64,000 nucleotides of DNA from contig CM120640.1 in the NCBI GenBank assembly GCA_051362555.1, forward strand, positions 62,536,788-62,600,787, given 5' to 3'. Positions 354 to 60,027 of the stretch are shown here, piece after piece. The stretch's first letter is position 1; every line of letters begins with the position of its first letter. The position numbers and the translations under genes are program-made. The notes beneath the pieces were generated by a model that had not been told where the DNA came from, ran no database searches, and worked only from the letters and a program-made list of their open reading frames with translations. Source of the DNA: Lingula anatina (lineage: Eukaryota > Animalia > Brachiopoda).

Positions 354-634
354 GGTAACGTAAGTTCAAGGCGAATGACTGACTGGTTATACTATTTAAA
401 TCAAGTTTCCAAATCCTGCCTATCTTCTGCATCAGAATAAAAAATATTCCAGAACAGTTTATGGCTTTCATTCCTCTTTAATAATACTGTGGTTCATAAA
501 ATTATATCACTTGAAGTTAAAAATATTTTTTTTTTTAAATAGGCAAAGTTTTAAAATTCATTTACACACATCTTCCTTTCCACTAATATTCATAGTTTAA
601 AAAGATGAAGTACTAAACTCAGATATTATCTTAC

Positions 635-14600: not shown

Positions 14601-17600
14601 CTTTAAAAACATCACTCAGAATGCTTTTTAAAATTCATAATTAATTACCAAATTGTATTATATGATGATAAAAACACTCACTTGTTCCTTAGCATATTCA
14701 AGGTTCTTTCTCCACTCTTCTACCTTCTTCTTAGCTGCAGCCAGTTCCTCCACTGCTTTCACTTGTCTGGTTTTCAATTTTGTCTCCCGGAGTCTGTCAA
14801 ATTCTTTATCATAATCATCATATTCTTCTGCAAATGAAAGGGAAATGCTAGTGCTAACTTCATGTACTAAAAATAACTTGAACATTTTAATCGAATAAGA
14901 AGTCAGAAAGGCGATTGCTTTTCCACCAATCAATTCAAAGAATATCAGGCATAACAAAATGTTTAACATTGTTTCAGAAAAACAAACTACAGAGTCTTCA
15001 ATTATCAAATTGAGTTTATACAAACAAGTGTTCATGTTACAATGCTGACTTAAGCATATACACAATACACCTGCTTTGTACAAGACACTTGCTGTGCACC
15101 AGATTATCAACAGCTGACAGCTTACCTTTCTGCAGCAGCTCCTCTTCATCCTCCTCATCTGAGGACACCTCGTTGAGCTGCAGGAAGGCACTAAGGGAGG
15201 TTGCCATACCAATCCTGGCTTTGAGCTTCTCAAGAACTGTGGCCTTCAGAGTCAATGACCTCAACAAGTTACTGGTCCTGATCTTGGCATTTTCATATTT
15301 TTCTTTGATGTTTTTGATGGCTTCCTTCATGATTTTGCCATCTTCTCTAGTGATGTCCAATGTGTACAGTACTCTCCTAAAAGATAATAATATAATCATG
15401 AAACAGGATTTCAATGTGTTGATAAATTGTGAAGTTTAAAAAAATGTTACTTAAGATTTATTACATCTAATATAATGAACTGCCCCCCATCAATAAGGCT
15501 TCAAATGTACATCAATGTGATTATTAAGAAGAAAAAGTAAATGAAATATATTTATCTTAAAGTACATCTAAGATATGCCCTATGGTTCTACTGTCCCTAT
15601 AAACAACTTACTTGAGTTGGGACACTGTCTCTGTCCTCTGTTTACATTTGGTGGAGTAAATATGTTTGAAGCAGTCCATCAGTCTTCTGTATGTAGTGGG
15701 GCCTATGAACACCTCATTCTTGGCTGGCTCATCTAAGTTCTTGTGTACAGCTCTGAAACGCCAAGTAAAGTATCAAAATATGGACTTCTATAATAAACAA
15801 AAAACAAAACAAACAAAAATCTTCAAAAATTGAGAGATCCAAGGAAATCCTTTATCCGTTTAGAGAAAAAGAACTCCTTTTGAAGATACCTGATCTGTTC
15901 AGCCATGATAGACTTGGCATATGGAAGATTAGGGAGGTTGACATTCTTATATTTGATGAGTTGCTCTCCCCTCTTCTTCTCCTGTAGGTACACCTGCACC
16001 ATAGCAATTTCTGGTGCCAGGTTTCCTGCCCACGGCATCTGCTTGCAGTCACGTAGACCAAAACTGTGGATGTTTGCCAAGCACGTAGTCAGGTTCTCAC
16101 TGAAATTTAAAAAAAATAAATAAATAAATAAAGTTATGGATTATAACAGCTGTCATTACTGAGATTTAATGAACAGATAATCATGCTGACAGCTTTTAAA
16201 AAATCAGAATTTATCTTTTCTGATTTAGTAATTTTCAAAATGTACCTTATGCAGGCTCTACTGAAAAAATACTATGAGTTACAAAAAAACTTAAACAGTA
16301 AATGAAAACATTTCAATTCAATACACACCAATTCAGACCAATTTCATATATTAAAAATAGTTAAATTGATACCCCTAAAAGCTGAACAATGTCTACCCAG
16401 ACCTACCTCAAGTCCACATTATCCTCCACCAGTTTGTTAATATTGATATAATAAGCTGCCTCTCCCATGAGAGCATCCTGAGGCCAGTCACACATCCAGT
16501 TGATCTGACACCCACTCAGCAGACCTGGGTATTGGCTGGAATTAGGTGACATAATATAAGACATAAACTCAATTAAATAATGATATGTTCTTACTGAATG
16601 CCACATGTGTATGGAACTTAAAATCTAGATATAATAGTGACCTTAGCAAATTCAAAATTTTTCAGATTTACTTGATATTTTGAGTAGCACCTTCAACTAA
16701 AGACACTTCAAGAAATCTGGAGACACTACAAGTCAAATAAAACATAATCACTTAAGGATATTAAATGCAAATACATACATGGAAGCAGTCTTCAGAAGTC
16801 TGTGGTTTGGAGGCAAGCACATTATGATATGGAGGTTACTCTTAATTCTGGACACAAAGTACTTCATAGGGTCCTGGGCCATATTAGGGAACTCCCTCTT
16901 TAGTGCTGGGCCAATGGCCTGGGTGAAACAGAAGGAGGATATCAGGACTGAGCAAATTTTACTCTCAGTGTGAAGGCAAAATTCAGACCAAAGTCCTTTA
17001 CAAACATCAAAATGCATCTATCTAATGGAATTACTGCTAGTTCTATAGGATGAATGTGTATAATTACATATAGTAATATTTCTATGATCACAGCCAAATT
17101 AAGCAAAACTGATGCTATGGAACTGCAATATAATAATAATAATAAAATCTATACTATCCAACTGTATTGTGATGGGTAAGCACTGACAGATGTAGAGTTA
17201 GATCTCACCTGTAGCAGTCCATCCAGTTCATCATTAGACAGCAAGTGAGGATATTCTCCACACACCAGTAAACTGTTGATGGCATCCAGGTACATGTCAT
17301 CATGGAGATCACGGGCCTGGAAGGGGTGAAACAAAAAAATATACAAAAGATATCTTCAGACGTTACTCTTTCTTGTAGATCCGCGTGAGCTGCACACCAA
17401 AAAAATCATCTAAAATATATTTGGTGGACAATAAACACGTCTAATGATCAATTTCTACACAGAGTATAATTCAATATTTAATCTATGTTCAACTAGTGTT
17501 CTAAAAAATATTATTAGAATGCACCAAATGATAATGACAACACCATCAACTCACAGTGAACATAAGAGATATAATCTTGCCCTCGGCTCCACTCAGTCTC

Positions 17601-20600
17601 ACTGCAGACCTAAGGCCATCAAAGAAAGTGTTCTGTTTGGAGGAGTCTACAGGGTGGATCTCTATGTCAGCCACATGGAGGGCCAGCTTGACCAGTAGGG
17701 CCAGGTGTGACCCAATGGCACCAATAAACAGAAAGTTACCACTGGAAATAAGAATATCAAATATAAAAAGATCACTAAGACAAGGAAGGTTTAGGTAAAC
17801 CCAATAATGAAAAACCAGTGACCACATGATAAACCAATTGCAATATCTTATTTCTTGCTCTACAAGAACTCTGAAAACCTTTATGTTTTAAAGACAAAAT
17901 TACATTCAATATTCTAAAAAGAGCATTCCAAAGGGAGAAAATTCCGCTCATTACATAACTTATGCATGGTAAGCAGGAAATTATAAGTTAAAATGTTTGA
18001 TCTATGATAAAATTTTAAAAATATCTCACCCATGATGGAAACTGAGCACTCTGTGCATCCTGACCACGTGTGCTATGATATGGTCAGATAACATGATGTC
18101 CAGTTGGGTGTTACCAAACTCCTCATTGTATCTGGTCAGGTGGGCAAACAGGCAGTTATGGACATCATGGAAACTCTGGATTGGCTGAAGAACAACCTGG
18201 AAACAACAGGGTCATGAAATACTGAGAATTATCAGAAAAATTTTAATAGTACAGACTGCATTGAACAACTGTAATAAAAATAGTCTACAGATAGTTTCTT
18301 TAATTTATTTGGCAAAAAATTCTTTTTAATGTTTATTTCCTATTTCTTTCCTTATTTATTCAGTTATTCATTCATAATCAGTTATACTAAAATTTTTTCA
18401 GTTATCACTGAGTGTTTGAATTATATAAATCACATAGAGATGGCATTGCATCTTGGAGTTTTAATTGCTGTGACAACTGGTGTTTTAATGATGTCAGACA
18501 GACAGTCTCAGTTCTATCTGAATACACCTTCCTGCACACCCTTGCCTACCTTGACTTGTTTCTGTGATAGAGAGGTCACTGGTCTCTGGTACACTCTGGT
18601 ATCAATGGGGAATGTCACAAAGTTCTCATACAGCTGGTCTGCCATACCTGGCCATGTCTAGGGGAAAAAAGAAAATTGTATTTTGATGTAAATGTCGACA
18701 TTGAAACTTCATTAGAAGACTGAGAAAAATCTGCTTCCTGTATTTTCCTACAATAAGTAAAAAAAATCTATCAAATCTATTAAATCAGTAACAAAATATA
18801 TCAAGTAAGACTGTTTGCAATGTGTTTCCATGAGAAATCCAAAATAATTTCAGTATGAGGAAGAAACTATAAAACTGGCACTCTCACATTCAAAGTAACA
18901 AATTGAATACGTTCCTTTTAGTTTATCACCATGTAACATTGAAACAAATAAACTGTAACAAAGTTCAAAAGTTCATCTGATGCTATCACCAACAACCAGA
19001 CTTTTCAGTTCATATCTGGGTAATTGGTAGCTTTTTGTTTTCTTTTAAAACCCACCTCATCCACCACCTTCTCCAGTGTCCCCTCTAGCCAGTTGATATC
19101 ACACTGTCTGCAGATCTTGTCTTTCATGATTCTGTTCATCTCATGTCTCCACAGAGATATCACTGTCACATCCTCTGCACGGTTCTCATCAGGGAGACGC
19201 TTCAGACACTGACAAGGATGACATGATCAGGTTATAAAATGTTTTGAAATTTCTGTTTCTCTCATTCAGTTTTATACGTACATCATTAAATCATGCTAAG
19301 AACATTACTTTTTTGCACTTAATGTGTTAAGCAAAAAATCAGACATTTTTATCAAATGTTAATGCATAATATGGGGGTTGTAACTGCATTTAAAAACAGA
19401 CTAAATGCTAGCTTTTTCCAGCATGCTTTACCTTTTTTTACTCCTATGTAAATTTTGTCCCATCAAAGATTCCCAGGTAATAAATCACAGCTGTACATTC
19501 TATTCACAATATAGAATCAAACTGTTTACAGGCTGGGCAAAGATATCTCACCTGAAAGCATGTGATCAAGTCCTTCAAAGTGAACAGGTAATGGTATCTT
19601 CCTGGCATAGGTGTGGGTCTGAGCACATCTTGGACAGCGGTCAGTGTCTTACAGGAGGCGGTCACTATGGAGTTGTGTAGTTCCTGCTCCAAAGCTGGCT
19701 TGTCTCCTGCTGTCATGTTACCCTGGGGAGGAAGAAGAACAATTCATTATTTAAATTCTGAGTTAAGCAAGATGGATTATTGCTGCTTTGAGAATGGAAA
19801 CTTTATGCACTTTCATGTACTTTAACTAACAACATTATTTAAAACAACCTACACTGAAAACTTACCCACTGATTCTAATAAAATTATCTATTCCACATTA
19901 GTTCTTCATTTAATACATCAGATACACCACCTCTGTACATTTCTTTAATCATAATAACCATGAAATATTGTAGTACATGTATAAATAGAGAAGTTTCTAT
20001 ACTATGAGCTTGGATCACCCACCTCCAGTACTCCATTCACAATTCTCTGCAGACCATCCTTCACGGGGGATGGCAGGTGGAACACAGCAAAGTGACGCTG
20101 GAAAGATAACAAGAGATAAGTTTAAACAATGGAAAGAGGCTGTTCAAGTTTAACAGTCCTCTGAATATAATCTTTTAAATGTTCCTTTTCATTGGAATGT
20201 TTTGAGGATAACCTAGAGGATGGTCTTTATGTTCATATGATAGGAGACTGTGTTTATTTATGTATTATAGAAAATATGTACCATATAAAAAAGACATTAA
20301 AAATCGATCCAAAGCATAAGAGAAAGTTTGAATCGATCCAAGTTCACAAAAAATAAAAATAACAAATAAAAACAGCAATCTGAACAAATATATATCTTAA
20401 TATCTCTTATTCCTCTCACTACCTGTCAACAGAGATACACAAGTGCATAGACCAAGATTCATTCAGTCTAAAAGAAACAGCAACTTACCATCAGCCTTTC
20501 TTCCAGTTTTCTGTTCTTGGCACTGGGATATTCACTCATAGACATAGTGGCAAAGATAATCAGGCCTTCTATGGTTCTCCATTCAAATGGCTTCTGTAGT

Positions 20601-22768
20601 GTGCAGAGAGTTCTGTCATCTAAAAGTTGTCTCAGGAGCTGAAAGAGTAATGTTGAAATTGAAAATTAAAAGCTGAATTTAACGTTACTCTCTGTAACTT
20701 AAATAAATATAACTTACTTTGTTGGTGCAATAAGTATTACATTACCACCATATATCCTGATACAATTGAATCCATAATCTGCATACCATTATCAAGAGTT
20801 ATACCACTCAATAACTTTGTAATAGAATGACTTCTATGGTTTAAGACAGTAGTTGTTTGCCTAAATTTATCAACAATGAATAACATCTCTCTTGGTAGCT
20901 TTTGTTTTCGTCAAAAAATGAATAAAGTTGCTGTTTTTTACCTCATTGCATCTCTGCACTCCCTGACTGTCAGCTACAGGCATATTGAGGTCATCAATGA
21001 AAATCTGAAGTCTTTTGTTCTCCTTGGCACCATAAACAAATCCTGAAGATAAAAATTTAATAGTAAAGACTCTTTAAAGAAAAATAAAGATTTATACGCT
21101 GTTGGCACATCACTTCATCAAGGAAGTGACAATTTCGTGTATAAAAATGATTATCAAAGACTTTATCTCTTAAAATTTTAATGTTTTTATTTGCTGAAAC
21201 TAGTTCCCATGCCCAACATTCTGAATTTTCACGTGTAGATACCCTGTCTGTGGTATATGTTAGCTTCAATAAATTGCTGTAGTTGTTTGGCTGTGGAGGC
21301 ACCAGAGTATACCAGTCTCTTCCCTATCTGAACCTGGTTGTCTGCAAGGACAAAAGACAATATAACAAGGTTTAAGCCTGCTGAAGATAATACTTCTGTC
21401 CCAAAGCCAATGAAATTTTGAACTTAAGAAATCAAACAAAATAATGTGAATGACAACTTAGTGTTGCTTCACATGAATTGGACTAATAAATAATTTCCCA
21501 TCCATATTTAGCCATTTCATTTATATTCTATAATAAACTTTTTTTTTAAACAGAAGAGTTACTTAATATTGCATTTCTATTTAAATATAAAAAAATCCTC
21601 CTCCTCACCCTGGGCATCAATGAACTCATTGACCATGGTGGTCTTGCCAGAGCCTGGAGGTCCTACTAGCAACACATTCTGTCCTGAGGCACAGGCAAAC
21701 TCCAGGAACACACGGGTGCGGATCTGTAGAAAATTATATTTTTCATAAGAATAGTATAACTCAAGTAGAAGCAGTGTCAACAGAGTAGTTTTACTCTGAT
21801 GCAAAAACTTTCAATAAAAAAATTCAAATCTAATCTGCATAGAAAGCTTCATGTACTCTGAAATCACCAGGGTCCAACTTTCTAAACATAATTAATTCAA
21901 TTAGATAGTAATTGACTTACTGTGTCCACAGTGTCCACAAACACCTGTCCCAAGATGTCCTTGTTGTCTGTGTAAATGGCCTCTGGTACCCTAGAGACCC
22001 AGGGGTCCCACTCTCCTGACTCATCTACATAGTAGTCAAATACACAGATATCACGGTCATCATCTGGGAGGCTGGAATTAACAATGGGGATTATGTTCAA
22101 AATATGCTGAAAGGTTCTGTTTTGCTATCTTGCAAATAGAATGATTTCTAGATTTCCCCTTTTGAGTGATATGATAAATTTTGGCATTTCTGTGAGCATA
22201 TTTTGGAGTAGCACAACATTACAGTCCACTTAAAACAAAATAAAAATGTGCCAATTGAATAATTCCACTGCAAAATGAGAGAATCCATAATGAGAGTCAC
22301 TGAAAAGTAACAGTAAATAAAGTGAATGGCATGAACAGGAACTTTAAGTCACCAGCCATAGCCTACATGCATTTCACCCCTTGACACCAGAAGGGGCTCA
22401 TGTTGACCAGGAGAATTAAGGCTTTTCCTAAACCATACTTACGCAGATGACAATGTCTTGACCAGATCGCTGAATCCCTTCCTGTCTCCCTTGTCCAGTA
22501 GTCCACCAAATGACCAGATCAGACAGAACAGATACAGTCTCTCTATGTGTAGTTCACCACCTATCTCAATGTTGTCTGCTAACATGGCTGACAACAGGTT
22601 GAGACAGGTCTTGAACATGCCCACTTCACTCAGTCGCATCTTGGGTCTAAAGTAAAAAGAATTTGATGAAATTAATTCAACTTCCTAAATATTTGCAATC
22701 TTTAATCAGTATCATTTTGATACATACATACATACATACATACATACATACATACATACATACATACA

Positions 22769-22804
<36 letters not shown>

Positions 22805-25800
22805 TGTATATATATATATATATGTATGTATATATATATATATAGAATGCTTCACTTAATTTCAGTATTTTTTCAAATCTGATAATCTAATCAAATGACT
22901 CAAATAGAACCATCAAAATGCATTTGAATAGGAGTACCAGAAGACTGAAAATAAAAAGATTGCTTCATTAATGTACTTACTTGGCCTCTGCCAGGACATA
23001 GTGCGACACAGCATCCACTGTCTTATCAAATGCTCTTTGTAAAACCTACAACAGATCTCTAGGTGCTTGAATGCATTTTACATGGTATACTACTGTTTTT
23101 AATAGGCAACACACTTTTTAAGTTTGTAAAATGCTCAAAAATGCATTTTTATACAATAATTACTAAAAAGACCATTTGCATTAAGTGGAAAAAACTTAAG
23201 AGACCATATAAAAAGTGATAAAAATATCCATTACTATTTTACAAATGTATTAAATAAAGTATCACTTGCTTTCATTAATATCAAACCACAATATAACTTT
23301 TTAGTTTGGGTCAAGATGCAAATCAATTTTTTACCAATACTACAAGCAGTAGGTTATATAAGAAACAGACTTTAAGCTTTTGTTGAATTAAACAGACGTG
23401 ACATATAAGTTATATTTCAAAGTGCGTAGAAAAAGTGAGGAATTATATTATGCTAAATAGAGCTAGGTAGAAGCTTCCTTTCCAATTACTACATAGTTAT
23501 TAGTAGATCACACGCTAGAAAGTCATATATGAATTGTGTTACGTTATAACCCATATAGACTAGCATACCAGTTCTCTGTCGTTGTCACCAGCAATTTTTA
23601 AAGTTAAATAACAAAACATAATCCAAGTTCTTAAAAAAATTAAATAAATAATGGATCAAAAACACACTTTTCAAATTTTAACTTAAGTTTTTTTTAAAAA
23701 AAGGATGATAATAACTTAATTTAATACATGAAAAAATAAATAATTTACCACTGGAAAAAGAAAAAAAAAAAGGTCTGAAATCAAATACAAACTTAAACAA
23801 ATTGACCACTAAATAAACATTTACATTCCAATGAAAATAAAACTGGCAGACAAGACAAATAAGGAAAACTGAAAGTTTGAAGGGGTTAATAAGGTGCAGG
23901 TTAGTAATTTTTTTTATTCTAGTGCAATAAAAGCCAAGATCACAGTCTAAAGATGGCTAATTTCAGATAGATTGATTTTGCAATTTTAAAATGTCTGAAC
24001 AAATGACTAATTAAAAAAGTGGCCAAATCTATCTTTTAGAGGAATACACTAATGTCTTATTCACCATCTTTAGACAATACAAAGAGGCAAGGAAGGGTTA
24101 ATAATAAAGTTCTGTTAAATTAGTAGGAATGAAAAGTTAAGCACAGAACCAGAAAAGTGAATGTGACACAGACATGTCAACATCACACACTGATCCAAGG
24201 AATGAAGGTGACAAGAGAGAGATGGGTGCAAGCATATTATTATACATGTGTGCCCTATGCATTATCACGTAACACGACGCACATGCACTTCCTGCTGTGT
24301 CCTGTTTTCCAGCCATGCCTTTGAGATGGGTCTCCAGCCAACGACGTCTTTGTCGACATACACAATACCCTTGGTGAAGAAACAAAATAATGACATGGAC
24401 ATGATGTATAAGTTTACAAAACTGTTAAGATACAAAATCTTAATCAAACTTGACTTAATTCTTTAATTATAAGTCTTAATTCTTTAAATTATAAATACAA
24501 TGAAACATTTGCAAAAATTCATTATTCCAGATGATCAATATCCACAAAGAAAGTTGTGCAATTATAAATCCAAAGCTGAGGAATTCTTCATGAAGTCAGA
24601 CTCACAGTCCTTGCTATAGTAGCTGGGGAAGCCTGACTGAGGTCTGAGGTCTCAAACAGAAGCTTGACGTTGTCAGACAGGAACAGACGGTCACCATTCT
24701 TCAGGTGCATTGCCTGGAACAAGTACACATTCAATGTAATATTTAGGAAACTCAACAGATATTGGCAACAACAGTTTCATGATATGCAATCTGTCATTAT
24801 TTTTGCATAGCATCTTAGTAGTTAATGTAAGTAGTTTCTTATACCCTTCATATTTTTTAAATATCTATTCTAAGAAAACAGCACATTTAATATCAATTTT
24901 CTGGTGGAGTGATTTATTTTTCATTACTGTAACAGCACAATTACTTATGAAATTTGTCTCCTGAATCAATATTTCCATACCTTGCCAATGTCCAAGACAC
25001 TGCTGAAGTTGTCTGCCCAGTTAGAATTGAGTGGGCCATCCAGACACAGCCACGTGGTGCTGAGATTCTGAAATATAAAATATAATCACAGTCAGTTCTT
25101 GGCATATATGTTTTATTTCAATACGTACCATAAAATGTTTAGAATATTTGGCATAGTATATCAAAATTACTTTTCCATTTCAAATAATCTCAGACACAAC
25201 TATGCAGAATTCACATATGTTTAGTATTTAGTTGATGGGGAAAGTGATATTTAAAACATTTTCTTTATAAAATTATGTTTACCCTGTTAGACTTCCTCAA
25301 AGCAGTGGTAAATATCCCATCCACCCAGTCCTGGTTCTGGTTGATATAACCAAACATGAGAGAGAGGTCATCCACAACCAGAGGGTTGATTCTCTGCAGC
25401 TTGTGGTTATTCTCTGCCATAGCCGTCCCCTTACTGCTGTGGGAGTGCCTGGAGAGGCCCCGTGGGGTCACACACAGGGCATCAACCAGGGTCTGGATAC
25501 AGGTGGACTTCCCACTCCCTGGGGGACCAGCTATCACTATACCTGTGGTGATTAAGTAAATAAATACATTACAAGATTTCTGTTGTACATAAAATCTGGA
25601 TCTGAAATTCATGAGAAAAGTATGACAATGGCTACAATAAAATAGTATGGTGTTACCATAAAACCAATAAAATCAAATAAATTGGAAAGATTTTTTATCA
25701 AACGTACCATGATGAATCTGTGATACATTGTAGAGCTGCATGCACTTCTCCAGCCAGCGTTTGTGTGGAATGAGACCTTCCTCTCTTGCCGTCTGCTCCA

Positions 25801-28800
25801 CAGCCATCTCAATGTCATATGACCTTGACCTTGCTGAATAACTTTGTTTGGTGGTTTCTGGGAGTCCAGAGAACACATCCTTGACAATTTGCTTGAAAAT
25901 GGTGTAGTTCTGCAATAAAAAAATTTCTCTTGTTGAAATAATCTACATTTTTTTGTCTGATTAATTTTTAAGGGTCTGTAAAACTGCATGCAATAAATAG
26001 TCCATGTGCCATTCTATTTTTGTTTTAATTAGCTGCCATTCACACTATTTAAATAATATTTGCCTCAAAACTACATTATGCATAATTCTTACTAAAAATA
26101 CAAAACCAGATTTAGATGGGGTTTAACAAAACCACCTTACTGCTAACTTTGAAAAGGACAGTAACCCCAGTCACACAGTGAACTTTCTGAAAAGTGATCT
26201 TTGACCAGAACCTACAGTAGTCAGAAATTAGGGAGGTAAATATAGTGAAAGACTGCAATCTGGCATCTGTATCTTTAAGTGTAACAAAAATATTCTTTAA
26301 TAAAATCAATCAGAGTGGTAGTAAATTCTTACATCTCCCTTGAGTCTAGGTCCTATGACCTCCAGCAGTGCCTGGCCCACCAGTGCATGCTCCTGCTTGG
26401 CTGCTGGGGTCAGAGGGTTGGGGGTACCAGCTTTCCTGGACAATGTAGTCTTGTCTGCTTGTCTCTGACCTGGAGCTGGACCTAAGAAATGAAAGACAAT
26501 TTGAGCCTAGGTTGTCTGTGTTGAATTAATTCACAGCATTTAATGGTGACACTGCTTAACACATATCGAAGAAGGTCCCTGTTTGACGCAAAGCATTGTA
26601 ACATATATAGCTTCAATATTATGTAGAAAGTGAACAGTTTTAACTTAGATCATATTTCATCATTATCAAGAATAATGACAGCATATTGTACTAAAACTGT
26701 CAATTTCATTCCGCAACACCTACTTGTCAGACTTGTTGACATCATAGTAGGCAACTGGACAGAGGCCTGGCTGTTGGACCTGGACATCTGAGTCTCTTCC
26801 TTCTTGTCCAGCCTATCAAATGACTTCTCCTCCTTGAGAGACTTCCTCTTCTGTGCTGCCCTCTGCAGGACACCAGTCAAAGCAGTCAAGCTGAACTGAT
26901 GTTGGCACTCTGGAGTCAGCAAGTCCTTAGCAAGATCTGTGATAATTTTCATCCTGGCACCTAGTATAGCAGGTGCTTTGAGGCCAGCTGAGGTGCACTT
27001 AGTTTTGAGAACTATACTGTAGTCTGGCATGACAAGTGCCACGGATCTGAATAATGCTTTCACATCCTCTGGCATGGTGAAGTTAGGGGGCGCTGTGGTA
27101 GGATTGATGGTCATGTAGATAGCAACATTCTTCTTGACATTTACCTAAAACAAAGAACATTACCAAATCTTGTAATGCTGGAAAGTTAGTTATTTTGTCT
27201 TGATATGATACTTTAGTAATTCAATTTAAAAAAGATATATAATTAAAATTGTTTTCCTAAAGTTTCCATTTTTGGTAGATGATAAAACATCTCATCAGTC
27301 AAAAGTATCCATAGTACAAACCATAAATTGCCTGTACAGCACACAGTGTGTTTCCTATGCCACAGAAGGCACAGACCTACCTCCTGTCCATCTCCAAAGT
27401 AACAGTAGTCTTTCCTGGCCTTGATGGCTCCAAATATGGCTGTCACACAGTCCAAGAATACAGAGAGAGCTTCCTTAGACACCAGCTGTGCCTCATCAAA
27501 GCAACCCCAGGAGCCATCCTAAGACAGACATTCAAGCGTAAATATTATATTAAATGTGAAAGGAATAAGAAGTATATGTATATTTGATGTTCATGTTTCA
27601 CACAATTACTCACATATTTCAGATTTTGCTGTTTTTATCATCTACTTGATATAGAAGTCATCCTAATTTCCATCCCATCTTCATCTTGAACACATAAATA
27701 AATAAATAAATATGAAAGAAAAGAATTGAAAAATAGAAAACTAAATTAAGTCAATTATCAACTCACCATGGACAATCCTTGTAACATCTTGCCTAAAGAT
27801 GATGGATCCATCTTTTCAGAACATTGGAAAATTCCAAGGAAATTTCCTAGAATCTGGGCAAGACCCTGAAATGAAAAGAAAAAACCAATCAACACAAGCT
27901 TTTACCCAAAACCAGTTCTATATTTTGTATCACATCATAACAAATCTTGATATTGCCTTCAAGAAATCAGAGAACTTTACAACCCCCCCCCCCAAAAAAA
28001 AAACATACTGAGTATTAAAAAAGCTTATTTTTGCATTAAACACATTTTTAGTGACAATTAAATTAGACTCAGGCTACCTTGCATGTCTCAGTCTTCCCCA
28101 CTCCAGTTCCCCCATGTATTGCACTCCCCTTGAACTGTGCCAGGGCCTGGGACATGCCTAGGAAGCAACGCTCATTGATGGGAGTAGGGGTGATCATCTG
28201 CTGAGCTCCATAGAATTCACAGCCATATTGATACTTGGTGTCCAGCATGTAGATGACTGGCTCTGTCTCCTCACCTGAAATAATCATAATGCAATGAACA
28301 CTGCCACATTTCTTCTTGATGTTTGTGACTTAAATACAGCAATATTATGTTTCAACAAAGAGTAAAGTACCTAAATGTTACACTGCCTAAAATCTTTTAA
28401 AGTAGATCAACAGCAAAGCTTTACTGTACTATGGTTTACTAAGCTTTTTTTAATAAAAGCATACCCTGCTTTACCAGAGAATTTATTCAAAACATAATAG
28501 GAAAACCCTATTGATCTTTTTTAATTATGTTTACCTGTGAGAGTTCAAAAAGATATGAAAAAAAAGGTGAGGTGGCCATAGATACTTACTGACTTCCTGC
28601 AGGTAACATCTGGCATTTTTCCTCCATTCAAAGTCTGTGGTCTCCCTCAGCTTTCTATTGCTCATGTAGTCTATGCTGTCTCTCAAGTACAGGCAGTACT
28701 AAAAATATGAATTTGTATTATATGTTTTATTATCATCTATACAAAGAGGTTTTTGTTTAATTCTTTTATATTATCAAATTCACTCAAACAGCGGACAACA

Positions 28801-31800
28801 CTTTCAATATTCTAAAGAATATTTCCCTTATTTAAATCTAAATATATTTAAATCTTATTTAAATACCTTAAATACTCCCGCACAAAAATGCAGTGGTATC
28901 GAAGTAGCAAAGCATTAACGCAGTAGTGGTGTGGAGCATATTTGCAGTAGAAATGCAGTATAGCCTACTGCAATTCTACTCCAAAAAATACATAGGTTTG
29001 TACAGAAAGGAGCATTAATGCAGTAGATTAGCAGCATGATAGAAGCATGTTTCAAATATGCTAATTAGCTCCCAATGCGAAGCAGATTTGAGGCATATTT
29101 GCAGTATGATTGCAGTAGTCTACTGCGCTGGAGCATCTACTGCGTTTTCGTGCGGGCAGTACTTGTGGCAGACTAAAAATTACAGTGAAATTTACATTTT
29201 GTCATGAAAAAAGCCAAGAATATAACCACAAAATATATTCAAATGTCACTGCATTAATCCTTAGAACATGGCATTTAAACCACTCACAGTAATCATGGCC
29301 TCCAGTCTTAGCCGATGCATTGGCATCATGGCCTCATCTAGGGTGCGCCACTGGTTCCGGACTAACATGGCTGGCAGCTTACTGGTGGCTCCCTGGAACT
29401 TCTTGGAGATATTGTTCAGGGATTTCCTGTCATATTTAATCTCCTGTACGCCCTGCTCACACTCCCTGGTCCAGTAATACAACAGGCCAATTCTGCAAAC
29501 TTGGGCTGGGTACTGGAAGAGAATAGTTTAACTTTACCTAAGTACATTCAATAATCTGTAACTATTTAGCCACAGTTTTATTCTTAAATGACCCAAAATG
29601 AGGAAGGCAAATAAAAAAACAAGAGAAAAAGAGAGACAGAGAGAGGTCTTACCCTGAATGCCCACTCGTCCATGGTGACATTAGCATTGACCTCCTGGCA
29701 CACAGACACAGACATCTCATGGAGTGTGATCCCTACAGATTCCCTCAACTGCTGCAACCACATCTCTACTCCATCAGACAGGGAAATCTGTAGAGTAAAC
29801 AATGGAAAACTCTTATACAGCTCACTTATTAAACAGATCAGCTACTGTACTTTTGAAAAAAAATTTTTTAATATATTTCTACAACGATCAGTGGATGTAA
29901 ATGACAAATAATTAAATATTATCAATCTTGAAAAAGGAAAATGCTGAAATAAATGTGGTGCTTGAAATATGCAGAGAGTATTGGGTTAACTGTATTGCAC
30001 TGCATTTAATACAAATGTATTTAGTATATACATTTACAATAGTAAGGACATAAAAAAACGTACTGTTTCATTGAGATTCAGCATCTCTCCCTCCAAACTG
30101 GTGACAGCCACTGCCTCCTGTACTACAGTCTCCTCTACTGCAACCTGCTCAGAGGGCAGCACTGTGGCAGTATGGGCCATCAGGCTGGGGTGGATGTTCT
30201 ATGGAAATTGATTTCAAATGTGTGATTTACCCAAGAAAATATTCTTATTTCAGATTTGTATGTAAGTGATGCTTATTAAAATGATTATATTTTTGTGAGT
30301 TTTATACTGCAAGCCAACAACACATGTACATATGACAATAAAATATGTTCAAATTCAATGCATGCAAATTCAAATTTCAATATTTTTTTCTTTTTCTTTT
30401 TTCTTCAATCTCTTTTGTTAAGTGACATGCAACCAAACTAGCTGCACTATTAGACCATACAAAACATAAATCATGTTCTGAACACTAAGAAAATACAATA
30501 TCTAGCATGCAAAAGTATATAGATTTTTCACAAAGCTCGCTAAAGGTAAGCCATGCAGATTTACATATCATCTATTGTCTCCATTGCTCACTACATCACA
30601 TAGTAAGTGATGAATAAAGCTTACAATTGACAAATAATTACTGCAATGTATACTGTGTTAACATATTAATTTCTATTCTTTAGATACCATTAAGGAAGTG
30701 ACATAAACTAACAGTTTAAAAGTTCTATTTCACAGATATACTAATATGTAACTTATACACTTCTAATAAAATGAACAAAAACAAAAAAATGTCATTATTC
30801 ATACATTGAAAATCACAATATTCATCTAGGTAAACAATATTCAAATTTCAATTTTCAAAAAGATTGACCTTTCAATGCTTTTCTCTGTAAGTATGTTTCA
30901 ACCAACTTTGTTTTCAAAACTTTAGTATAAACTTTGTTTAAACAAAGGCAATAATTTTTGTTCACAGAAACTACATCTAATCAGAGAAAAACATAAAAAT
31001 GTCTGGATTGCTGTGTGTATCAATAGCTGAAGCAATGTGAAGTGGAGAGGCTATTAGTATGGGGCAGGTCACTCAGTGCACTACTTACTGACTGGCGCTT
31101 TTTGTTTTTAAACTTGCGATCATTTCGAAGAGCTGGGGAGGCCTCAGTACCCTTCTCGTCTTTGTCCTGTGGTGCGTTATGGGACAAATGTGATACTTGT
31201 GACTATTGTTAGTTGTCACGTGACAATGTCAATATCAAATTGAAATGCTAATATGTCTACTATGTCTATGTTGTTCTCTACGTCATCTCGAACAGATCAG
31301 TAAGAGGATTTTATCTATGGCTTAGAAGACTTTATCTATGGCTTTAACTAAATCCTAGGTTTAAAAACCTAATATGAGAATGAATGGTGTTATTCCACTC
31401 AAAAGTTTTTCTTGTTAAAGAATTTTAGATAAAAAGTGAGGTTTTCAAATGAATTAGTTCAAATCAAATTTGTTTTAGATTTATGTATCCTATTAAGATT
31501 TCAACACAAGAGCAAGAAAATAATTTGGAAAAGCAATATGCTACACAACAGAGTCACAATATTCAATAAAGTGTCAGTTTTTAAAATGAATTAGTTCAAA
31601 TCAAATTTGTTTTATGTTTGTGTACTATATTAAGATTTCACCACAAAAGAAGGAAATGATTTGGATAAGGTATATGCTACACAAAAGAGTCACAAAATTT
31701 AAGAACATTAAACAATTTTAGTCTGATTCTATTAATTTTTAAAAAGCTTATTTCAACACTAAGAAGGATATTGAGATATCATATTTTACTAACTATATCA

Positions 31801-34800
31801 AGGCATTTAAAAATGACACACTGCAAAAACTGCACTAACAAGTTGAAGGGATTGCAGTGAAAATGACAAAGGGAAATTGTCTAACAAAGTAGAAAGCACA
31901 AGGAAATGTGGTTAGTTATTTTGCAATAGGGCATATTTAAAAGCAACATCTAGCTGAAGTTTAGAAAGTTTCATATATACAGACAAAATAGTAATATCAA
32001 ATATGAATAAAAAGTTGCAATCAAAATACAAATCTTAATTAGTTACTACACAATTCAACTTGTAACATGTGCAACGAAGTGTACTAGTGAATTTCAATGT
32101 GAAAAAAATGAACAATTAAAATAACTATAACATTAAATGCACACAAATTACTTGTGATAAACAAACAAATCAAAAGTGCAACATTTTTATTTAAATTCTA
32201 TTTTAAATAGTGTTCTACAAATCTCTTATAAATGCTGATATTACAACTCCAGGGAAAAATATACACAAAACCTGCAAGTCACCAACCAATTTCTTCAGCT
32301 ATCTAAGACAATGCATTTGATATCAATTTAAATCCACAAACTGTATTTTTTTCAGATTGCCTTAGTAATTTTATGCACCAAAAAAAGATAACTTTTAGTC
32401 ACAAAATCATGTATCAGCTGGTTCAAGGCAGTTTGCAGGTTCTATGCACTTTTCAAAAGTACCAATATTGTGCCAAAAACAGAGATCTGTCATGGCACAA
32501 TACTTACATGGATCTGGGTGAGCCTTTTGTCTATCTTAGCTGGAGTCTGCAGTATACGAGGAGATATGGAGGTAGCTCTGGACCCCTCACCAGGTACAGG
32601 GGTACGACTACGCCTTGATGGCGTCTCTGATCTGGCCACGGACTCTGTCTCACTGCTCAGTGGTTCAGTTCTCTCCAATTTCACATCATACACATTGGTG
32701 AAGATGGTTCTGTGAAAGAAAGAAATGATGAATATATTATATTTAGGTTGTGATATTCGATATTAAACAGAAAACTAAACCACTGCTGTTACTAAAAATC
32801 AAGCCTTCAAATAAAGGAGAAATCTAAAGAATGGTACTAGATTATGTTTCCGGTTTCAATTTCTGTCAACATGACAAATTTCCTTTTCATCTAACCATCA
32901 TAATGTCTAACCAGAAAACGCTACTTAAATGTTCTCTTTAACATGCTGAATACAGAAAAGTGATATCATAACTGAGCACAGAGCCTCCATAGCCCACCTC
33001 ACCATACCACCTACCTGAGATGAGGTCTGACGGACTCCAGATCATAAGGTCTGCTCAGCATAGCCAGCAATACTGGGTCTGACACAAAGTAGAACCTGGG
33101 GAAAGCTCTCCTCTTGTTGTCCAGGTAACCCATCAGGGACTTGAAGCAGATCTCCAGTTCTTCAAAGATGTGCCTTAGAACAACCCCCTTTGGGACATCA
33201 CCTCCATAACAGCACTACAAGGAAATGACATAGAATGACATAGAAATCAGCTGACCCAAGGATCCAACACAAGTAAGACAAGTATTTTTAAAAAATTTAC
33301 AAGCATTATAATGGAGAATGTTTTGAAACATATATCATTTTTTACTTTAATTCTGAATGAGAAATCCTGTCAGGTGCAACATGCTTTTCATTCTCTATGT
33401 TTACTGACATTCATAATAACTAAACATACCTGTAGGACATTTCTTGTGTCGTAGGCACGCTTCATCATTTTTACCCATCCTTTGTCAATTCTACTAAAAC
33501 GTTTAGCCTCTTGAGGGAGTTCCTAATAATATGACAAGCATAAATTAAATACAACTTTTTTCATATAATGCAAATGATTTCTGAAACTGTAAACAATTCC
33601 CTAAACTTTTTATATCCACATATTTCATAATATCATAAAAATTCATAAACAAGAAGTATTATCACATATAAGACAGATTAACAAAATGTAGCTAGCAATA
33701 AAAATATCTCCAATAAAATAAGTATCATATAAAATGATATACAAAGTCACATGTACCTTGGCTGTGGTAGCATTACTGAACACCTCCTCCAGGTACTGCC
33801 ACAGATCCTGCACCTCCAGCCAGGTCTCCAGTACTAGCCCCACCTCCTTCAGCTTCTCTGCCCAGCTAGCTGCCTCCTCCCTCAGTGGACCTATATACTT
33901 AGAGGTCAGCATATTGGCCAGCAGGGCCTGGGCGTCCTCCAGCTGCTCCAGCAGGTGCTCAGTCACTGTCTTGTCCAGAAAGATGGGCCCTGCCTTTTTG
34001 TAGTTCTCAAAGGTAAGGACTTGTTCTGTCCACTCTTCTTCAGTGATACGCATCTTGATTTCTAGTTCTTGTTCTTTGCTGGCACAGTAGCAGATTTCTT
34101 CAATTTCTGATTTGTGTCTGAAAAAGTTTAAATTCAAAAATTTGAATTGGTTTTCCACCATAAGTTATTGCCCATTACAAATTGTAATCAAACCAACACA
34201 TTTTATCCTGGGAAAAATACAGGAATTTTTATCAAAATTGCCAAGATGAAAGAATGTTTAATCTCCTTGTCTTTAAAATTTGTCAGATATCTCACTTGAT
34301 CAGTCCTATGTCAAGGAGGTGGCAGAGTTTGAATACATTGGCCTCCAGTTGGAAGGAACTTCCTGTCACTGACATCACCTGCAGCCAATGTCTGTTACGA
34401 ATTTCCTGGAAAATTTTTTTTTTCACTTTTATGGCATTGCTTGAAATATAAATTTTTAATTATCTTGATGTAACTACTGGTAACAAAATCAGTGTGTGTA
34501 TTATGTGTGTGTGTGGGGGTGGGGGGTGGGGGGGAACTTAATTGCATCATATTTTATAATGATATGAGGGGTCTTTATCAATCTTTTTATTAACCAATAT
34601 AGTTGTCCACATATTGTATACTCTTTTACCTCTCATTGAAACCAATCATACCTTTGAAGCCAGTCTATGCAGTAAGGGGAATACATCTAAATACTGCTGA
34701 ATGGAATTCTTCATGTCATTGTAAGCATCCCAGTCCTTGAGTTTACTGGGCAAGGCAAGACATTCATCCCAGTAGGACTCCACCTGGAAATCCAATTTCA

Positions 34801-37800
34801 TGAAGAATTAATAAAGAAAACACATATATTTTGTTAAACACATTAAAAGATGAAGGAAGAAAATGTTTTGTTTTTGGAAGAAAAACAGGAAATTATGGAC
34901 AAAAAACTAACAACTAACAAATATAAATATTGCCTTACATACATTTACATCAAATGAAACATTTCCATACCTCTCTGTTGTCATTTTCCAGAATCACCTC
35001 TGCCCACAGCGTGTCTCTGAAGATATTGTCAAACCGTATGAACTTCTGGAACAGTCCATACAACTGACCTAGAAGATCAAGTTCCTGGGAAAAAAAAGGA
35101 AAGAAAAGGTGAGGCACAAGGTAGTTGACAACAAGCCACACTTACAGTATGAGATTTAGCTATCCAATTGTATTGAAGTAACTGAAATTTTACTTCTAAT
35201 GTGCTATATATCAATATCTCTTCAGTCTATTAATGCTCATTTAAAGATATGAATAGACTGATTTAAATGTGATCCAAAATGAATGTCTTTGAAAACAAAG
35301 CAAAAAAGAAAACTAATTCATAGATTTTCATCTCTTCTTACCTCTCCAGTTCTGTCCAACTCAGTGAAAGGCTTACACACAATTCCAAAGAGTCTGGAGA
35401 CTGAATCCAGTGTCTTCCTCTTGGCATCATAAAGAGTGTACCTTTGCTGGAAGTCATGCAGACGTTGGACAGCCTCTGCTGGGGGTATACCAGGCACAGC
35501 TGGACCCTGGGCATCAAAGGCATTGCGGAACTGGATCACCTCCACTACAAATGTCTGGAAGATAATAAATAAAAATTAATTGCTGGAGCATGTATAATCA
35601 GCTTGTCAAACTAAATAATATTTAACAGCAAAATAAATTAGTAACTGTTTTATCAGAGTGACTTTACTAAGGCACTAAATAGATTTATCTGACATAAAAA
35701 ATGTTGTTTGCTTTACTACTCTGTTTGCAAGTGCCTAATCTATCAATTTTTACAATTGTATTCATATTCTAGTATTACCTTGACTTGTTTGTCCAGCTCC
35801 TGTTCAAATGCACCTCTCTTTTCTTTCAGCAGATCATGTCGTACTTGCTCTGTAAGTTCTAGAAGCTCTTGCCATTTGTCACGTAGGTGGTCCACTTCCT
35901 CCACCTCATTACGAGGCAGGCGGAGCTCAAACTCCCTACAGATGAATGCAAAACATATGGTTTCTCTTACACATGTCAAGTATTTAACCTACTTTTTATT
36001 TTTTATTTTAATTAGGGACTGAATAACAAAAAAAAAAAAAAAGAGAGAAAAAACAAAATAACTGCTTTTTTATATTTCTCTTATACCGCCTTACTAAATC
36101 AGCGTAAAGCATGAGTACTGTTTCCTGATTACTGAAAAGATACACTTCACAAAGCAATCATCAATAGACTTACCTAAGTTTGGCATACATGGTCTCTATA
36201 GGGAGATAGATGTCATCTACATTGTTCTCCATGTCCCTGACCTCCTCCAGCAAGTGGAGAGTACTGTTCAGTTGGTCCAGTGTCTGGACATTAAGTTCAA
36301 GACGCTGACGTACATTGTACCTATAGAGTACTGCTGCATCTAGCTTTTTCTGAAAAATTAGAAGACAATTAAAGAATTACTTTATACTTGATAACCTACT
36401 AAATAATCCACAAAAATGATCTGAAAAAAGAGGGTAGACATTCAAAATAAAGAAATATCAATGATGGTATTTTAAAAATGCAATCATAAAATTGAAAGCA
36501 TGTCAGTTTTACCTTGGCTTCTTCATGTAATACTGAAGCATATTTGGTCTTCCAAGCCATAGCAAATCCATGGAGAGCATCTTTTATGGGTGCTGTCTGC
36601 AAACATATGGGTCCCACTGGCAACACTTCTGGAATATTGGTCACTTTCCTCTCAATACGCAGCAGTCTCTCTACCTCCCGTTTGATGGCAAAGAGGCCTG
36701 GATCCCCACTGATGAACTCCTGGTAGTTCCCATGCATATCATCTTTCCATAAGAAGTCATATAGACTGAAGTGGAACAGATGTTGCTTCACTATGAGGTC
36801 CAGATCTGAAATTAAAATGCAAATCTTATCAGGGTGTGTTCATATCAATCCAACTAACAGTATCATATACTTCTGCTCATCCTCATAGACTGTCAACTAT
36901 ATCAGTAATCTGCTTTCTCAAAAAGTCAATCTTTTACACTGCTATGCTTATACCAGTACAAAATAATTTGTATAATTTTACACCAAATTTTATAAGAAAA
37001 TTTAGCTAAAAAAAGAGGCATTTTTTTGTCTGTATATATTGCAGAATATCAGCAAAAGAACTATAATTATATGATATACATAATAAATCATATCTCAAAA
37101 GAAAATGCTGAAATTGACAAAAAGATGCTTATGTGGATGAAATCAAAATAACATTACCTTCTACTATGCCCTTGATCTGTTCCAAGATTTCCTGTAGAGT
37201 GCCGTCCTCCATGATAGCTGTGTGGAAGGAAACCCCCACCTGACCACTTGACCAGGAGATACCTAGGACAACATGAAATTTACCATGTATAATCTTGAAC
37301 ATACCTGGGATTAAGTGAACAAAGCACTTGCCTCAAATGATTTTTTTTTAAATCATTTTTTTTTTAATTCTAAAGCATGCTTCATTTTTAAGACTTAGAA
37401 TAGAAAATTTCACTTGGTCAGTTATATTACCTTTAGCCACCTCCAGGACCTCTGCAGCCACTGCAGTGACAGCGGTCTGAATACTGGCCAAGGCTGGGTC
37501 AATGATGATGTTTGGAATGGAAAACTTCACATTCACTTTGAATCTGAAAGTAAAGTTATGAACTTACTTCCACTGTGTGAAATGTCAAGTGTGACTAATT
37601 TACATTCCTTTGGGAAAGCAACCAACAAATTATGTATCATTTTTTCTTAGAATTTGGCCTTATGGATGTAAATATCATGATATTTTATAAATACAAATCT
37701 TAAAATCATGAATATAAATGAACTACATAAAAATAAAAATTTAATAATTCAACTGCAATCAAAATTTTTTTAAAAAAAAATGCTATTTTGCTACTTTTAC

Positions 37801-55333: not shown

Positions 55334-60027
<4,694 letters not shown>

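What the first reader, a model, noticed from the sequence alone, without database searches (positions are those of the whole stretch)
26860..28130. Main ATPase site (AAA1) of an intact dynein has lost conserved catalytic-loop residues
Seen: Walker A GGTGVGKT and Walker B CFDE are kept, but DEFNR reads DEAQL, MNPGYAGRxELP reads [13 protein letters not shown], and HYDFGLR reads QHQFSLT, so the sensor-II Arg is Thr (codon 26884-26886). The AAA2-donated Arg finger (ASPATIAR) is retained. Known: these AAA1 motifs are near-invariant in motile dyneins and AAA1 drives the power stroke. Inference: a 4,900-codon uninterrupted frame argues against a pseudogene, so this may be a slow, uncoupled or pseudo-motor gamma-type paralog acting as a brake, scaffold or sensor.
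Basis: partly seen in the sequence, partly recalled or inferred. Interest (0 to 1): 0.8.

Follow-up and report, generated by a model that had tools for sequence, protein, structure and literature searches.

The report
DNAHX, known non-motile dynein gene
This expressed gene is an invertebrate's copy of DNAHX, a family of dynein motor proteins already described in a 2025 preprint; its main fuel-burning site has lost key residues, so it likely binds ATP without moving and likely holds a working partner dynein still in sperm tails.

Summary
In detail: AAA1 reads GGTGVGKT / CFDEAQL / [10 protein letters not shown] / QHQFSLT, the sensor-II Arg is Thr (ACT, 26886-26884), and RNA reads confirm the splicing. 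The spliced model (87 exons, 4,884 codons, no stop; 3' end outside the window) is 54% identical over its whole length to XP_041462850, the founding DNAHX of Chai et al. 2025 (cryo-EM: unhydrolysed ATP at AAA1, only pre-powerstroke particles), against 26-31% for DNAH5/DNAH8/ODA-gamma. It nests in the DNAHX clade and carries all five DNAHX insertions. Sensor-II Arg is present in 5 of 90 DNAHX sequences against 62 of 62 canonical dyneins, so the decay is family-wide and old. DNAHX is probably Kollmar's 2016 class-12 (not proven). Small additions: the AAA4 P-loop is dead in 88 of 88, the AAA1-3 P-loop lysines are kept, and DNAHX also occurs in internally fertilising animals. The scan found DNAHX before, in an octopus genome. 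Verdict: real, selected, probably non-motile, already known.

The parts
635..54049 (-). DNAHX dynein heavy chain gene, spliced model of 87 exons and 4,884 codons; ATG at 54049; continues beyond the window's low end
   Evidence: Model (no stop); 54% identity to XP_041462850 over residues 1-4884; 27 of 27 listed RNA joints match; reads run on past 635. Some tail exon borders (about 37100-42200) rest on prediction only.
33430..54049 (-). Gamma-type (DNAH5/DNAH8/ODA-gamma-like) tail and linker
   Evidence: Pfam DHC_N2 on exon 33643-34164; mollusc ortholog tail P0001 matches solved gamma-type chains best, 363-273 bits against at most 189 for other classes
28090..28113 (-). AAA1 Walker A GGTGVGKT (Lys kept, Thr>Val at position 5)
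   Evidence: same motif and same Val as V2221 of XP_041462850
27483..27503 (-). AAA1 Walker B CFDEAQL (Asp-Glu kept, FNR lost)
27070..27108 (-). AAA1 sensor I: Asn-Pro kept, GYAGR loop replaced (Tyr>Thr)
26884..26904 (-). AAA1 sensor II region QHQFSLT (Arg>Thr)
25505..25528 (-). AAA2 P-loop GPPGSGKS (kept)
24609..24632 (-). AAA2-donated arginine finger ASPATIAR (kept)
21640..21663 (-). AAA3 P-loop GPPGSGKT (kept; Walker B IFIDD at 21004-20990, no Glu, as in gamma-type chains)
17699..17722 (-). AAA4 P-loop relic GAIGSHLA (no Gly-Lys)
   Evidence: GK absent in 88 of 88 DNAHX rows
15698..16038 (-). Pre-sensor-II insert (PS2i) in the AAA4 small domain, about 55 extra residues
   Evidence: 65 residues against 10 in four gamma-type chains; 62 in XP_041462850
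9347..15376 (-). Stalk with insertions: acidic CC1 insert, MTBD pre-H3 and H5 inserts, CC2 insert
   Evidence: CC1 185 vs 141-142, H1-H3 68 vs 35-37, H3-H6 78 vs 41, CC2 151 vs 130 residues; four joints in this region read in RNA

Best explanation
The gene is the ortholog of DNAHX, a gamma-type dynein heavy chain whose AAA1 site lacks the sensor-II arginine and whose stalk is broken up by insertions, so it likely binds ATP without completing a power stroke and likely serves as a rigid, switched-off partner that holds a working heavy chain inhibited in sperm flagella. Shown here: orthology, the motif changes, the five insertions, splicing, purifying selection. Shown for the sea-urchin ortholog only (preprint): unhydrolysed ATP at AAA1, no post-powerstroke particles, a heterodimer with a second heavy chain, 13% of particles in the auto-inhibited phi form. 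Inferred: selection keeps nucleotide binding (P-loop lysines of AAA1-3) to hold the ring closed and has let the catalytic residues drift; the AAA4 insert pins the C-terminal cap; the kinked stalk binds microtubules poorly. [quoted passage not shown] Odds: membership about 0.98, non-motile about 0.87, inhibited-pair role about 0.5.
For: P0202 is XP_041462850.1 and has the residues the preprint names, V2221, S2322, T2324, K2393. The window model matches it in one alignment, 2,690 identities in 4,982 columns (54%), against 26-31% in separate pieces for ODA-gamma, DNAH5 and DNAH8. FastTree on 50 motor cores nests the window in the DNAHX clade (support 0.97, stem 0.83), sister to the gamma clade. 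Motif counts, DNAHX against canonical: sensor-II Arg 5 of 90 vs 62 of 62; FNR 0 of 87 vs 62 of 62; sensor-I loop Tyr 0 of 88 vs 61 of 62; Walker B Glu 39 of 87 vs 62 of 62; sensor-I Asn 31 of 88 vs 62 of 62; Arg finger 46 of 88 vs 63 of 63; Walker A Lys 89 of 90; AAA2 GK 90 of 90; AAA3 GK 87 of 90; AAA4 GK 0 of 88 (canonical GK 49, GR 11 of 60). Five insertions present. Pfam stalk family MT scores 159 bits on ODA-gamma and is below cut-off or not among the 25 rows shown on 3 of 3 DNAHX orthologs. 25 of 27 listed exonic RNA variants are synonymous against 22% expected. Preprint text. DHC-1N as the heavy-chain pairing domain of two-headed dyneins: passage in 10.1101/2025.03.10.642390.
Against: The window protein keeps four catalytic elements of AAA1 (Lys, Asp-Glu, Asn, Arg finger), as do 23 of 90 orthologs, so sequence alone does not prove it dead. 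The MTBD helices H1-H2, H3-H4 and H6 remain alignable. Non-motility rests on one preprint on one species; its main text has no hit for 'ATPase assay' and I saw no motility assay in the parts read; no DNAHX structure is in the PDB copy searched. The partner chain was not identified there, and the transport role is only a model. The tissue of the RNA runs is not given, so sperm expression is not shown for this species.
Confidence: 0.8

Rival explanations
1. Same protein, different job: DNAHX docks through its gamma-type tail at outer-arm sites of the finished axoneme in place of the gamma chain, perhaps paired with Kollmar's class-13 chain, and acts as a passive brake or spacer that tunes the beat, not as an assembly or transport aid.
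For: Gamma-type tail kept. Kollmar 2016 proposes a class-12/class-13 heterodimer at outer-arm positions. DNAHX was salt-extracted from mature, demembranated sperm axonemes.
Against: No in situ structure shows it at outer-arm sites. 60% of particles were monomers. The stalk is predicted to fold back, which suits a brake poorly.
Confidence: 0.3
2. Invertebrate DNAHX is a slow ATPase uncoupled from the stalk, and slow hydrolysis acts as a timer or ATP sensor that releases the partner chain.
For: Lys, Glu, Asn and Arg finger are all kept in the window and in 23 of 90 orthologs, all invertebrate; the vertebrate rows with sequence at that site have Asp in place of the Glu.
Against: The sea-urchin protein keeps the same four residues, yet shows unhydrolysed ATP in 3 mM ATP. 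Each residue is lost in many invertebrates as well (amphioxus Glu>Asn, several snails Asp>Lys), as expected from drift.
Confidence: 0.12
3. A working but slow axonemal motor in which another residue replaces the sensor-II Arg.
For: Linker motif FPRFYF, all six AAA modules and the MTBD core are alignable.
Against: The sensor-II column holds 12 different residues across 90 orthologs, with no conserved basic substitute. The next Arg (VLQR) aligns with the canonical SVLR Arg, so it is not a new one. The stalk is about 135 residues longer. No post-powerstroke class was seen in the ortholog.
Confidence: 0.04
4. A decaying pseudogene or a gene-model artefact.
For: The 3' end is outside the window and some tail exons are only predicted.
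Against: No stop in 4,884 codons; spliced RNA; 25 of 27 variants synonymous; orthologs from sponge to frog.
Confidence: 0.01

Closest known systems
DNAHX / dynein-X (Chai, Loustaunau, Zheng, Yang, Zhang 2025, bioRxiv, PMC11785096; reference XP_041462850)
   Same: Whole-length orthology (54%), identical Walker A GGTGVGKT, sensor-I loop Tyr>Thr, loss of sensor-II Arg, PS2i insert, CC1/CC2/MTBD inserts, expected length about 5,250 aa, range from sponges to amphibians.
   Different: Sensor II is Thr, not Lys; the sensor-I Pro is kept (NP against NS); FNR reads AQL, not FQL. These lie within the variation of the family.
Class-12 dynein heavy chain, DHC12 (Kollmar 2016, PMC5100056)
   Same: Class-3 (gamma)-like tail, atypical stalk without a typical microtubule-binding site, listed for sea urchin and Capitella, 4,800-6,000 residues.
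   Different: No class-12 sequence could be fetched for a direct comparison. Kollmar dates the class to Holozoa (choanoflagellates), the preprint to animals. MTBD helices and coiled-coil segments are still alignable here. Kollmar did not analyse the ATP sites.
Outer-arm gamma-type heavy chains (DNAH5, DNAH8, Chlamydomonas ODA-gamma)
   Same: Tail type, domain order, sister clade in the motor tree.
   Different: 26-31% identity; all AAA1 motifs intact in them; AAA4 P-loop intact; short canonical stalk.
DNHD1 (Kollmar class-11), the human orphan heavy chain
   Same: Also reported to have a degenerate AAA1 and many insertions (preprint discussion).
   Different: A separate class; lacks the Walker B residues and has insertions at other sites according to the preprint; not compared by sequence here.

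Membership tests
DNAHX | Closest to XP_041462850 rather than to other axonemal heavy chains; distinct clade beside the gamma-type outer-arm chains | tested here: met
   54% full length vs 26-31%; tree. No reverse search against the whole Lytechinus proteome was possible.
DNAHX | Degenerate AAA1: Walker A Thr>Val, sensor-I loop Pro/Tyr change, sensor-II Arg lost | tested here: met
   Val, Tyr>Thr and Arg>Thr present; Pro kept
DNAHX | Pre-sensor-II insert in the AAA4 small domain | tested here: met
   65 vs 10 residues
DNAHX | Insertions in CC1, CC2 and MTBD (pre-H3, H5) | tested here: met
   +43, +21, +31 to +33 and +37 residues
DNAHX | Unusually long chain (about 5,200-5,300 aa) | tested here: inconclusive
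   4,884 codons in the window align to residue 4,890 of 5,272; the rest is outside the window
DNAHX | ATP trapped at AAA1, locked pre-powerstroke, heterodimer with a second heavy chain in sperm | not testable with these tools
   Needs biochemistry or cryo-EM; shown only for the sea-urchin protein
Class-12 DHC (Kollmar 2016) | N-terminal tail similar to class-3 (gamma) | tested here: met
   Tested on the mollusc ortholog tail P0001 and by BLAST of the model to gamma tails
Class-12 DHC (Kollmar 2016) | Stalk without a typical microtubule-binding site or coiled coil | tested here: inconclusive
   Pfam MT below cut-off or not shown on 3 of 3 orthologs and no Pfam hit on 3 of 3 window MTBD exons (short pieces); but the helices remain alignable
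Class-12 DHC (Kollmar 2016) | Motor domain groups with Kollmar's class-12 sequences | not testable with these tools
   Sequences are in CyMoBase; the supplement gives no accessions in the places searched
Canonical outer-arm gamma heavy chain (class 3) | Invariant AAA1 motifs GPAGTGKT, DEFNR, MNPGYAG, HYDFGLR and intact AAA4 P-loop | tested here: not met

The most novel reading that the evidence does not exclude
DNAHX is Kollmar's class-12 dynein, and its decay is graded: many invertebrate copies, this one among them, keep Lys, Glu, Asn and the arginine finger and are slow, stalk-uncoupled ATPases whose rare turnover times the release of a beta-type partner chain, while vertebrate copies are fully dead. 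The window protein, with sensor-I Asn-Pro kept, would be among the least decayed members.
Probability: 0.1. Interest if true: 0.55.

Novelty: new member of a known kind. Interest (0 to 1): 0.18.

Why it matters
As a discovery it matters little: the subfamily, its AAA1 decay and its probable non-motility are in a 2025 preprint, and orthologs from sponge to frog sit in public databases under misleading DNAH5/DNAH8-like names. It remains an untested family (no knock-out or enzyme assay in the paper parts read), and this lophotrochozoan copy is expressed and under purifying selection. Three points that I did not find in the preprint's main text could sharpen tests: the dead AAA4 P-loop beside kept AAA1-3 P-loop lysines, the likely identity with class-12, and its presence in internally fertilising animals.

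Tried and rejected
No whole genome is held for this window, so the 3' end, paralogs and a possible class-13 partner could not be searched. A word-indexed search with the AAA1 exon found nothing; the HMMER search with the same exon did. The first ab initio model had errors: it skipped or clipped tail exons, fixed by homology, and included three small false exons at 11409, 11066 and 10173, removed after RNA showed a direct 12188-9546 joint; that joint therefore matches the model by construction, the other 26 were predicted beforehand. P0030 (Pomphorhynchus) was dropped from the DNAHX counts: about 25% identity and canonical AAA1 motifs. The one DNAHX row without the Walker A Lys (Acipenser_b) looks like a faulty gene model; it was counted anyway. 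The index listed no RNA holder; the RNA evidence comes from raw-read runs with the same species label. Run X12 showed reads only on an intronic repeat. No DNAHX chain was found among solved structures. The ESM Atlas gave only generic DHC_N1 clusters, so presence in choanoflagellates stayed untested. Rfam: 0 matches. The phosphorylation preprint on oyster and urchin dyneins gave no passage on this chain. No structure was predicted, because the AAA1 pocket spans four exons plus AAA2; between-species dN/dS was not computed, for lack of ortholog coding DNA.

Full report
Observation. The region is part of a multi-exon gene on the minus strand of an AT-rich animal genome. The exon 26653-27144 matches Pfam AAA_6, and its alignment to solved dyneins puts the Thr on the sensor-II Arg without a gap. 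The roles of Walker A and B, sensor I, sensor II (Arg at the start of H7) and the arginine finger are as described in PMC4047620 (passages); AAA1 as primary site and AAA2 as a non-hydrolysing site are from 10.1101/2020.09.22.308700 (passages).

Gene model. An ab initio parse, corrected by homology and by RNA, gives 87 exons from the ATG at 54049 to a donor at 635: 4,884 codons with no stop. RNA-seq reads of runs with the same species label were laid on 24200-30300 and 600-20500 (7 different runs of the 9 RNA runs listed). All 27 spliced joints shown match the model (I converted the joints by the cut offsets given; one was used to correct the model; 22 further joints were not shown). In the stranded runs the reads agree with a minus-strand transcript, and they continue past 635 into sequence outside the window. 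Levels differ strongly between samples (X17 1,183 reads laid against X12 29, the latter only on an intronic repeat); tissues are not given. Of the 27 exonic variants listed, 25 are synonymous against 22% of possible changes (binomial p about 1e-14); one of the two others shares a codon with a second variant. The gene is expressed and under purifying selection.

Identity. The first exon found mollusc relatives at 53-63% (5 proteins). HMMER with the AAA1 exon found a distinct top group, named on look-up as amphioxus, bichir, caecilian and frog proteins. A search with the caecilian protein's AAA2-AAA3 region listed 120 of 154 hits: 88 of this group (253 bits or more), from sponge, placozoan, cnidarians, nemerteans, an annelid, molluscs, echinoderms, hemichordates, tunicates, amphioxus, non-teleost ray-finned fishes, coelacanth and amphibians, then 32 canonical gamma-type chains (206 bits or less). 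One of the 88, P0202, is XP_041462850.1, the founding DNAHX of Chai et al. 2025 (PMC11785096; I read parts 1-4 and 7 of 7 and searched passages; figures and supplements not seen). It has the residues the paper names (V2221, S2322, T2324, K2393). The window model aligns to it in one piece at 54% (2,690 of 4,982 columns), to Owenia at 62% and Lottia at 59%, and to ODA-gamma, DNAH8 and DNAH5 at 26-31% in five or six pieces. The species is thus probably a lophotrochozoan; I did not place it further. A FastTree LG+gamma tree of 50 motor cores (window, 22 DNAHX chosen for spread, 27 other dyneins; 1,288 columns) nests the window inside DNAHX (support 0.97, stem length 0.83), sister to the gamma clade (1.0); its place among lophotrochozoans is unresolved. 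The long stem makes the exact branching point against algal gamma chains unsafe.

Motifs across the family. I counted 90 DNAHX sequences (the 88 rows plus P0013 and P0033; P0030 dropped; the set holds isoforms and many frogs, so rows are not independent) against 63 canonical ones (32, 31 long unnamed dyneins picked); rows with gaps at a site were left out of that count. Sensor-II Arg: 5 of 90 (four poison frogs and Bufo, which all lack the Walker B Glu) vs 62 of 62. FNR after Walker B: 0 of 87 vs 62 of 62. Sensor-I loop Tyr: 0 of 88 vs 61 of 62. Walker A Thr at position 5: 12 of 90 vs 61 of 61. Walker B Glu: 39 of 87 vs 62 of 62. Sensor-I Asn: 31 of 88 vs 62 of 62. Arg finger: 46 of 88 vs 63 of 63. 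By contrast the P-loop lysine is kept in AAA1 (89 of 90), AAA2 (90 of 90) and AAA3 (87 of 90), while AAA4 has no Gly-Lys in 88 of 88 (canonical: GK 49, GR 11 of 60). The pattern is that of a ring selected for binding nucleotide, not for hydrolysing it (inference). The window protein is among the less decayed members: it and 23 of 90 orthologs keep Lys, Glu, Asn and the Arg finger together; the sea-urchin reference is one of them.

Beyond AAA1. The five insertions that define DNAHX are present: PS2i in AAA4S (65 residues against 10), CC1 (185 against 141-142, with an acidic run), MTBD before H3 (68 against 35-37) and at H5 (78 against 41), CC2 (151 against 130) (assignment of the helices is by alignment and recalled MTBD anatomy). 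Pfam's stalk family scores 159 bits on ODA-gamma, 22.7 (cut-off 24) on the Strongylocentrotus ortholog, and is not among the 25 rows shown for the other two orthologs. The tail of a mollusc ortholog matches gamma-type chains best.

How it likely works. For the sea-urchin ortholog the preprint reports ATP, not ADP, at AAA1 in 3 mM ATP, no post-powerstroke particles, PS2i holding the C-terminal cap, a stalk predicted to fold back, and particles that are 60% monomers, 27% open two-headed and 13% phi-form with an unidentified second heavy chain. By orthology and shared anatomy the window protein likely behaves the same: an ATP-bound, pre-powerstroke head on a gamma-type tail that pairs with a working chain and keeps it off. 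The preprint proposes single-headed inner-arm dyneins as cargo during flagellar assembly. I think a beta-type chain is the likelier partner, since DNAHX keeps the DHC_N1 pairing region found in two-headed dyneins, and Kollmar proposed a class-12/class-13 pair on the same ground. That step is inference. A resident brake at outer-arm sites, a slow ATP timer and a true slow motor are the rivals.

Comparison with what is known. Membership of DNAHX is met on every sequence feature that could be tested. Kollmar 2016 (PMC5100056; abstract, sections 8-10, 14, 31, passages, supplement part 1 of 5 and term searches) describes class-12 as having a class-3-like tail and an atypical stalk, present in sea urchin and Capitella, and says the ATP sites were not analysed. 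This fits DNAHX well, but no class-12 sequence was available, and the preprint's main text has no hit for 'DHC12' or 'choanoflagellate'. Searches for 'DNAHX' and for 'dynein-X' or 'non-motile dynein' found only this preprint as relevant; subscription journals are largely outside the library. An earlier scan note reports the octopus DNAHX; I had reached the assignment before that look-up.

Verdict. A real and well-read observation, but a new member of a known subfamily with a known pattern. Interest 0.18.

Noticed in passing
orthologs (P0230, P0004, P0014, P0164-P0166, P0183, P0232, P0238, P0240): DNAHX occurs in land snails (Bradybaena, Candidula), other copulating gastropods, a caecilian, newts and axolotl, and coelacanth, which fertilise internally (recalled biology), while no teleost was among the 88 DNAHX rows. 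This weakens the preprint's link to external fertilisation.
   Followed up: partly
window 17699-17722 (-) and orthologs: The AAA4 P-loop has lost Gly-Lys in 88 of 88 DNAHX rows yet keeps a conserved new form (G-x-V/I-G-S-H-L); not mentioned in the preprint's main text as searched.
   Followed up: partly
orthologs P0218, P0232, P0233, P0234, P0235: Freshwater pulmonate snails have Lys in place of the AAA1 Walker B Asp, and five heterobranch gastropod genera (8 rows, with Bradybaena) have Ser in place of the arginine finger: further decay in that lineage.
   Followed up: no
window 55334-55534 (+): A GT-ended exon starting about 1.3 kb upstream of the dynein ATG, head to head; its end resembles the start of calcipressin/RCAN proteins (recalled; no Pfam hit on this short piece).
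   Followed up: partly
window 62892-63386 (+): A 165-codon open frame with an exon-like part (about 63005-63336) rich in Lys and Pro, resembling PCNP-type nuclear proteins (recalled; no Pfam hit).
   Followed up: partly
window 28877-29160 (intron): A transcribed interspersed repeat: deep reads, mostly in the orientation opposite to the exon reads in X17, with many loose ends; probably a short mobile element copied elsewhere in the genome.
   Followed up: no
window 46299-47436 (intron): Tandem array of about 8 copies of a 146-base unit, 89% matches.
   Followed up: no
window 26333-26820 (-): A low-complexity Ser/Thr/Pro-rich insertion of about 80 residues follows the sensor-II helix in AAA1S and is shared by the orthologs; similar R-x-x-S-rich inserts lie in the linker (32508-32709) and tail (39458-39722), possible phosphorylation regions.
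   Followed up: no
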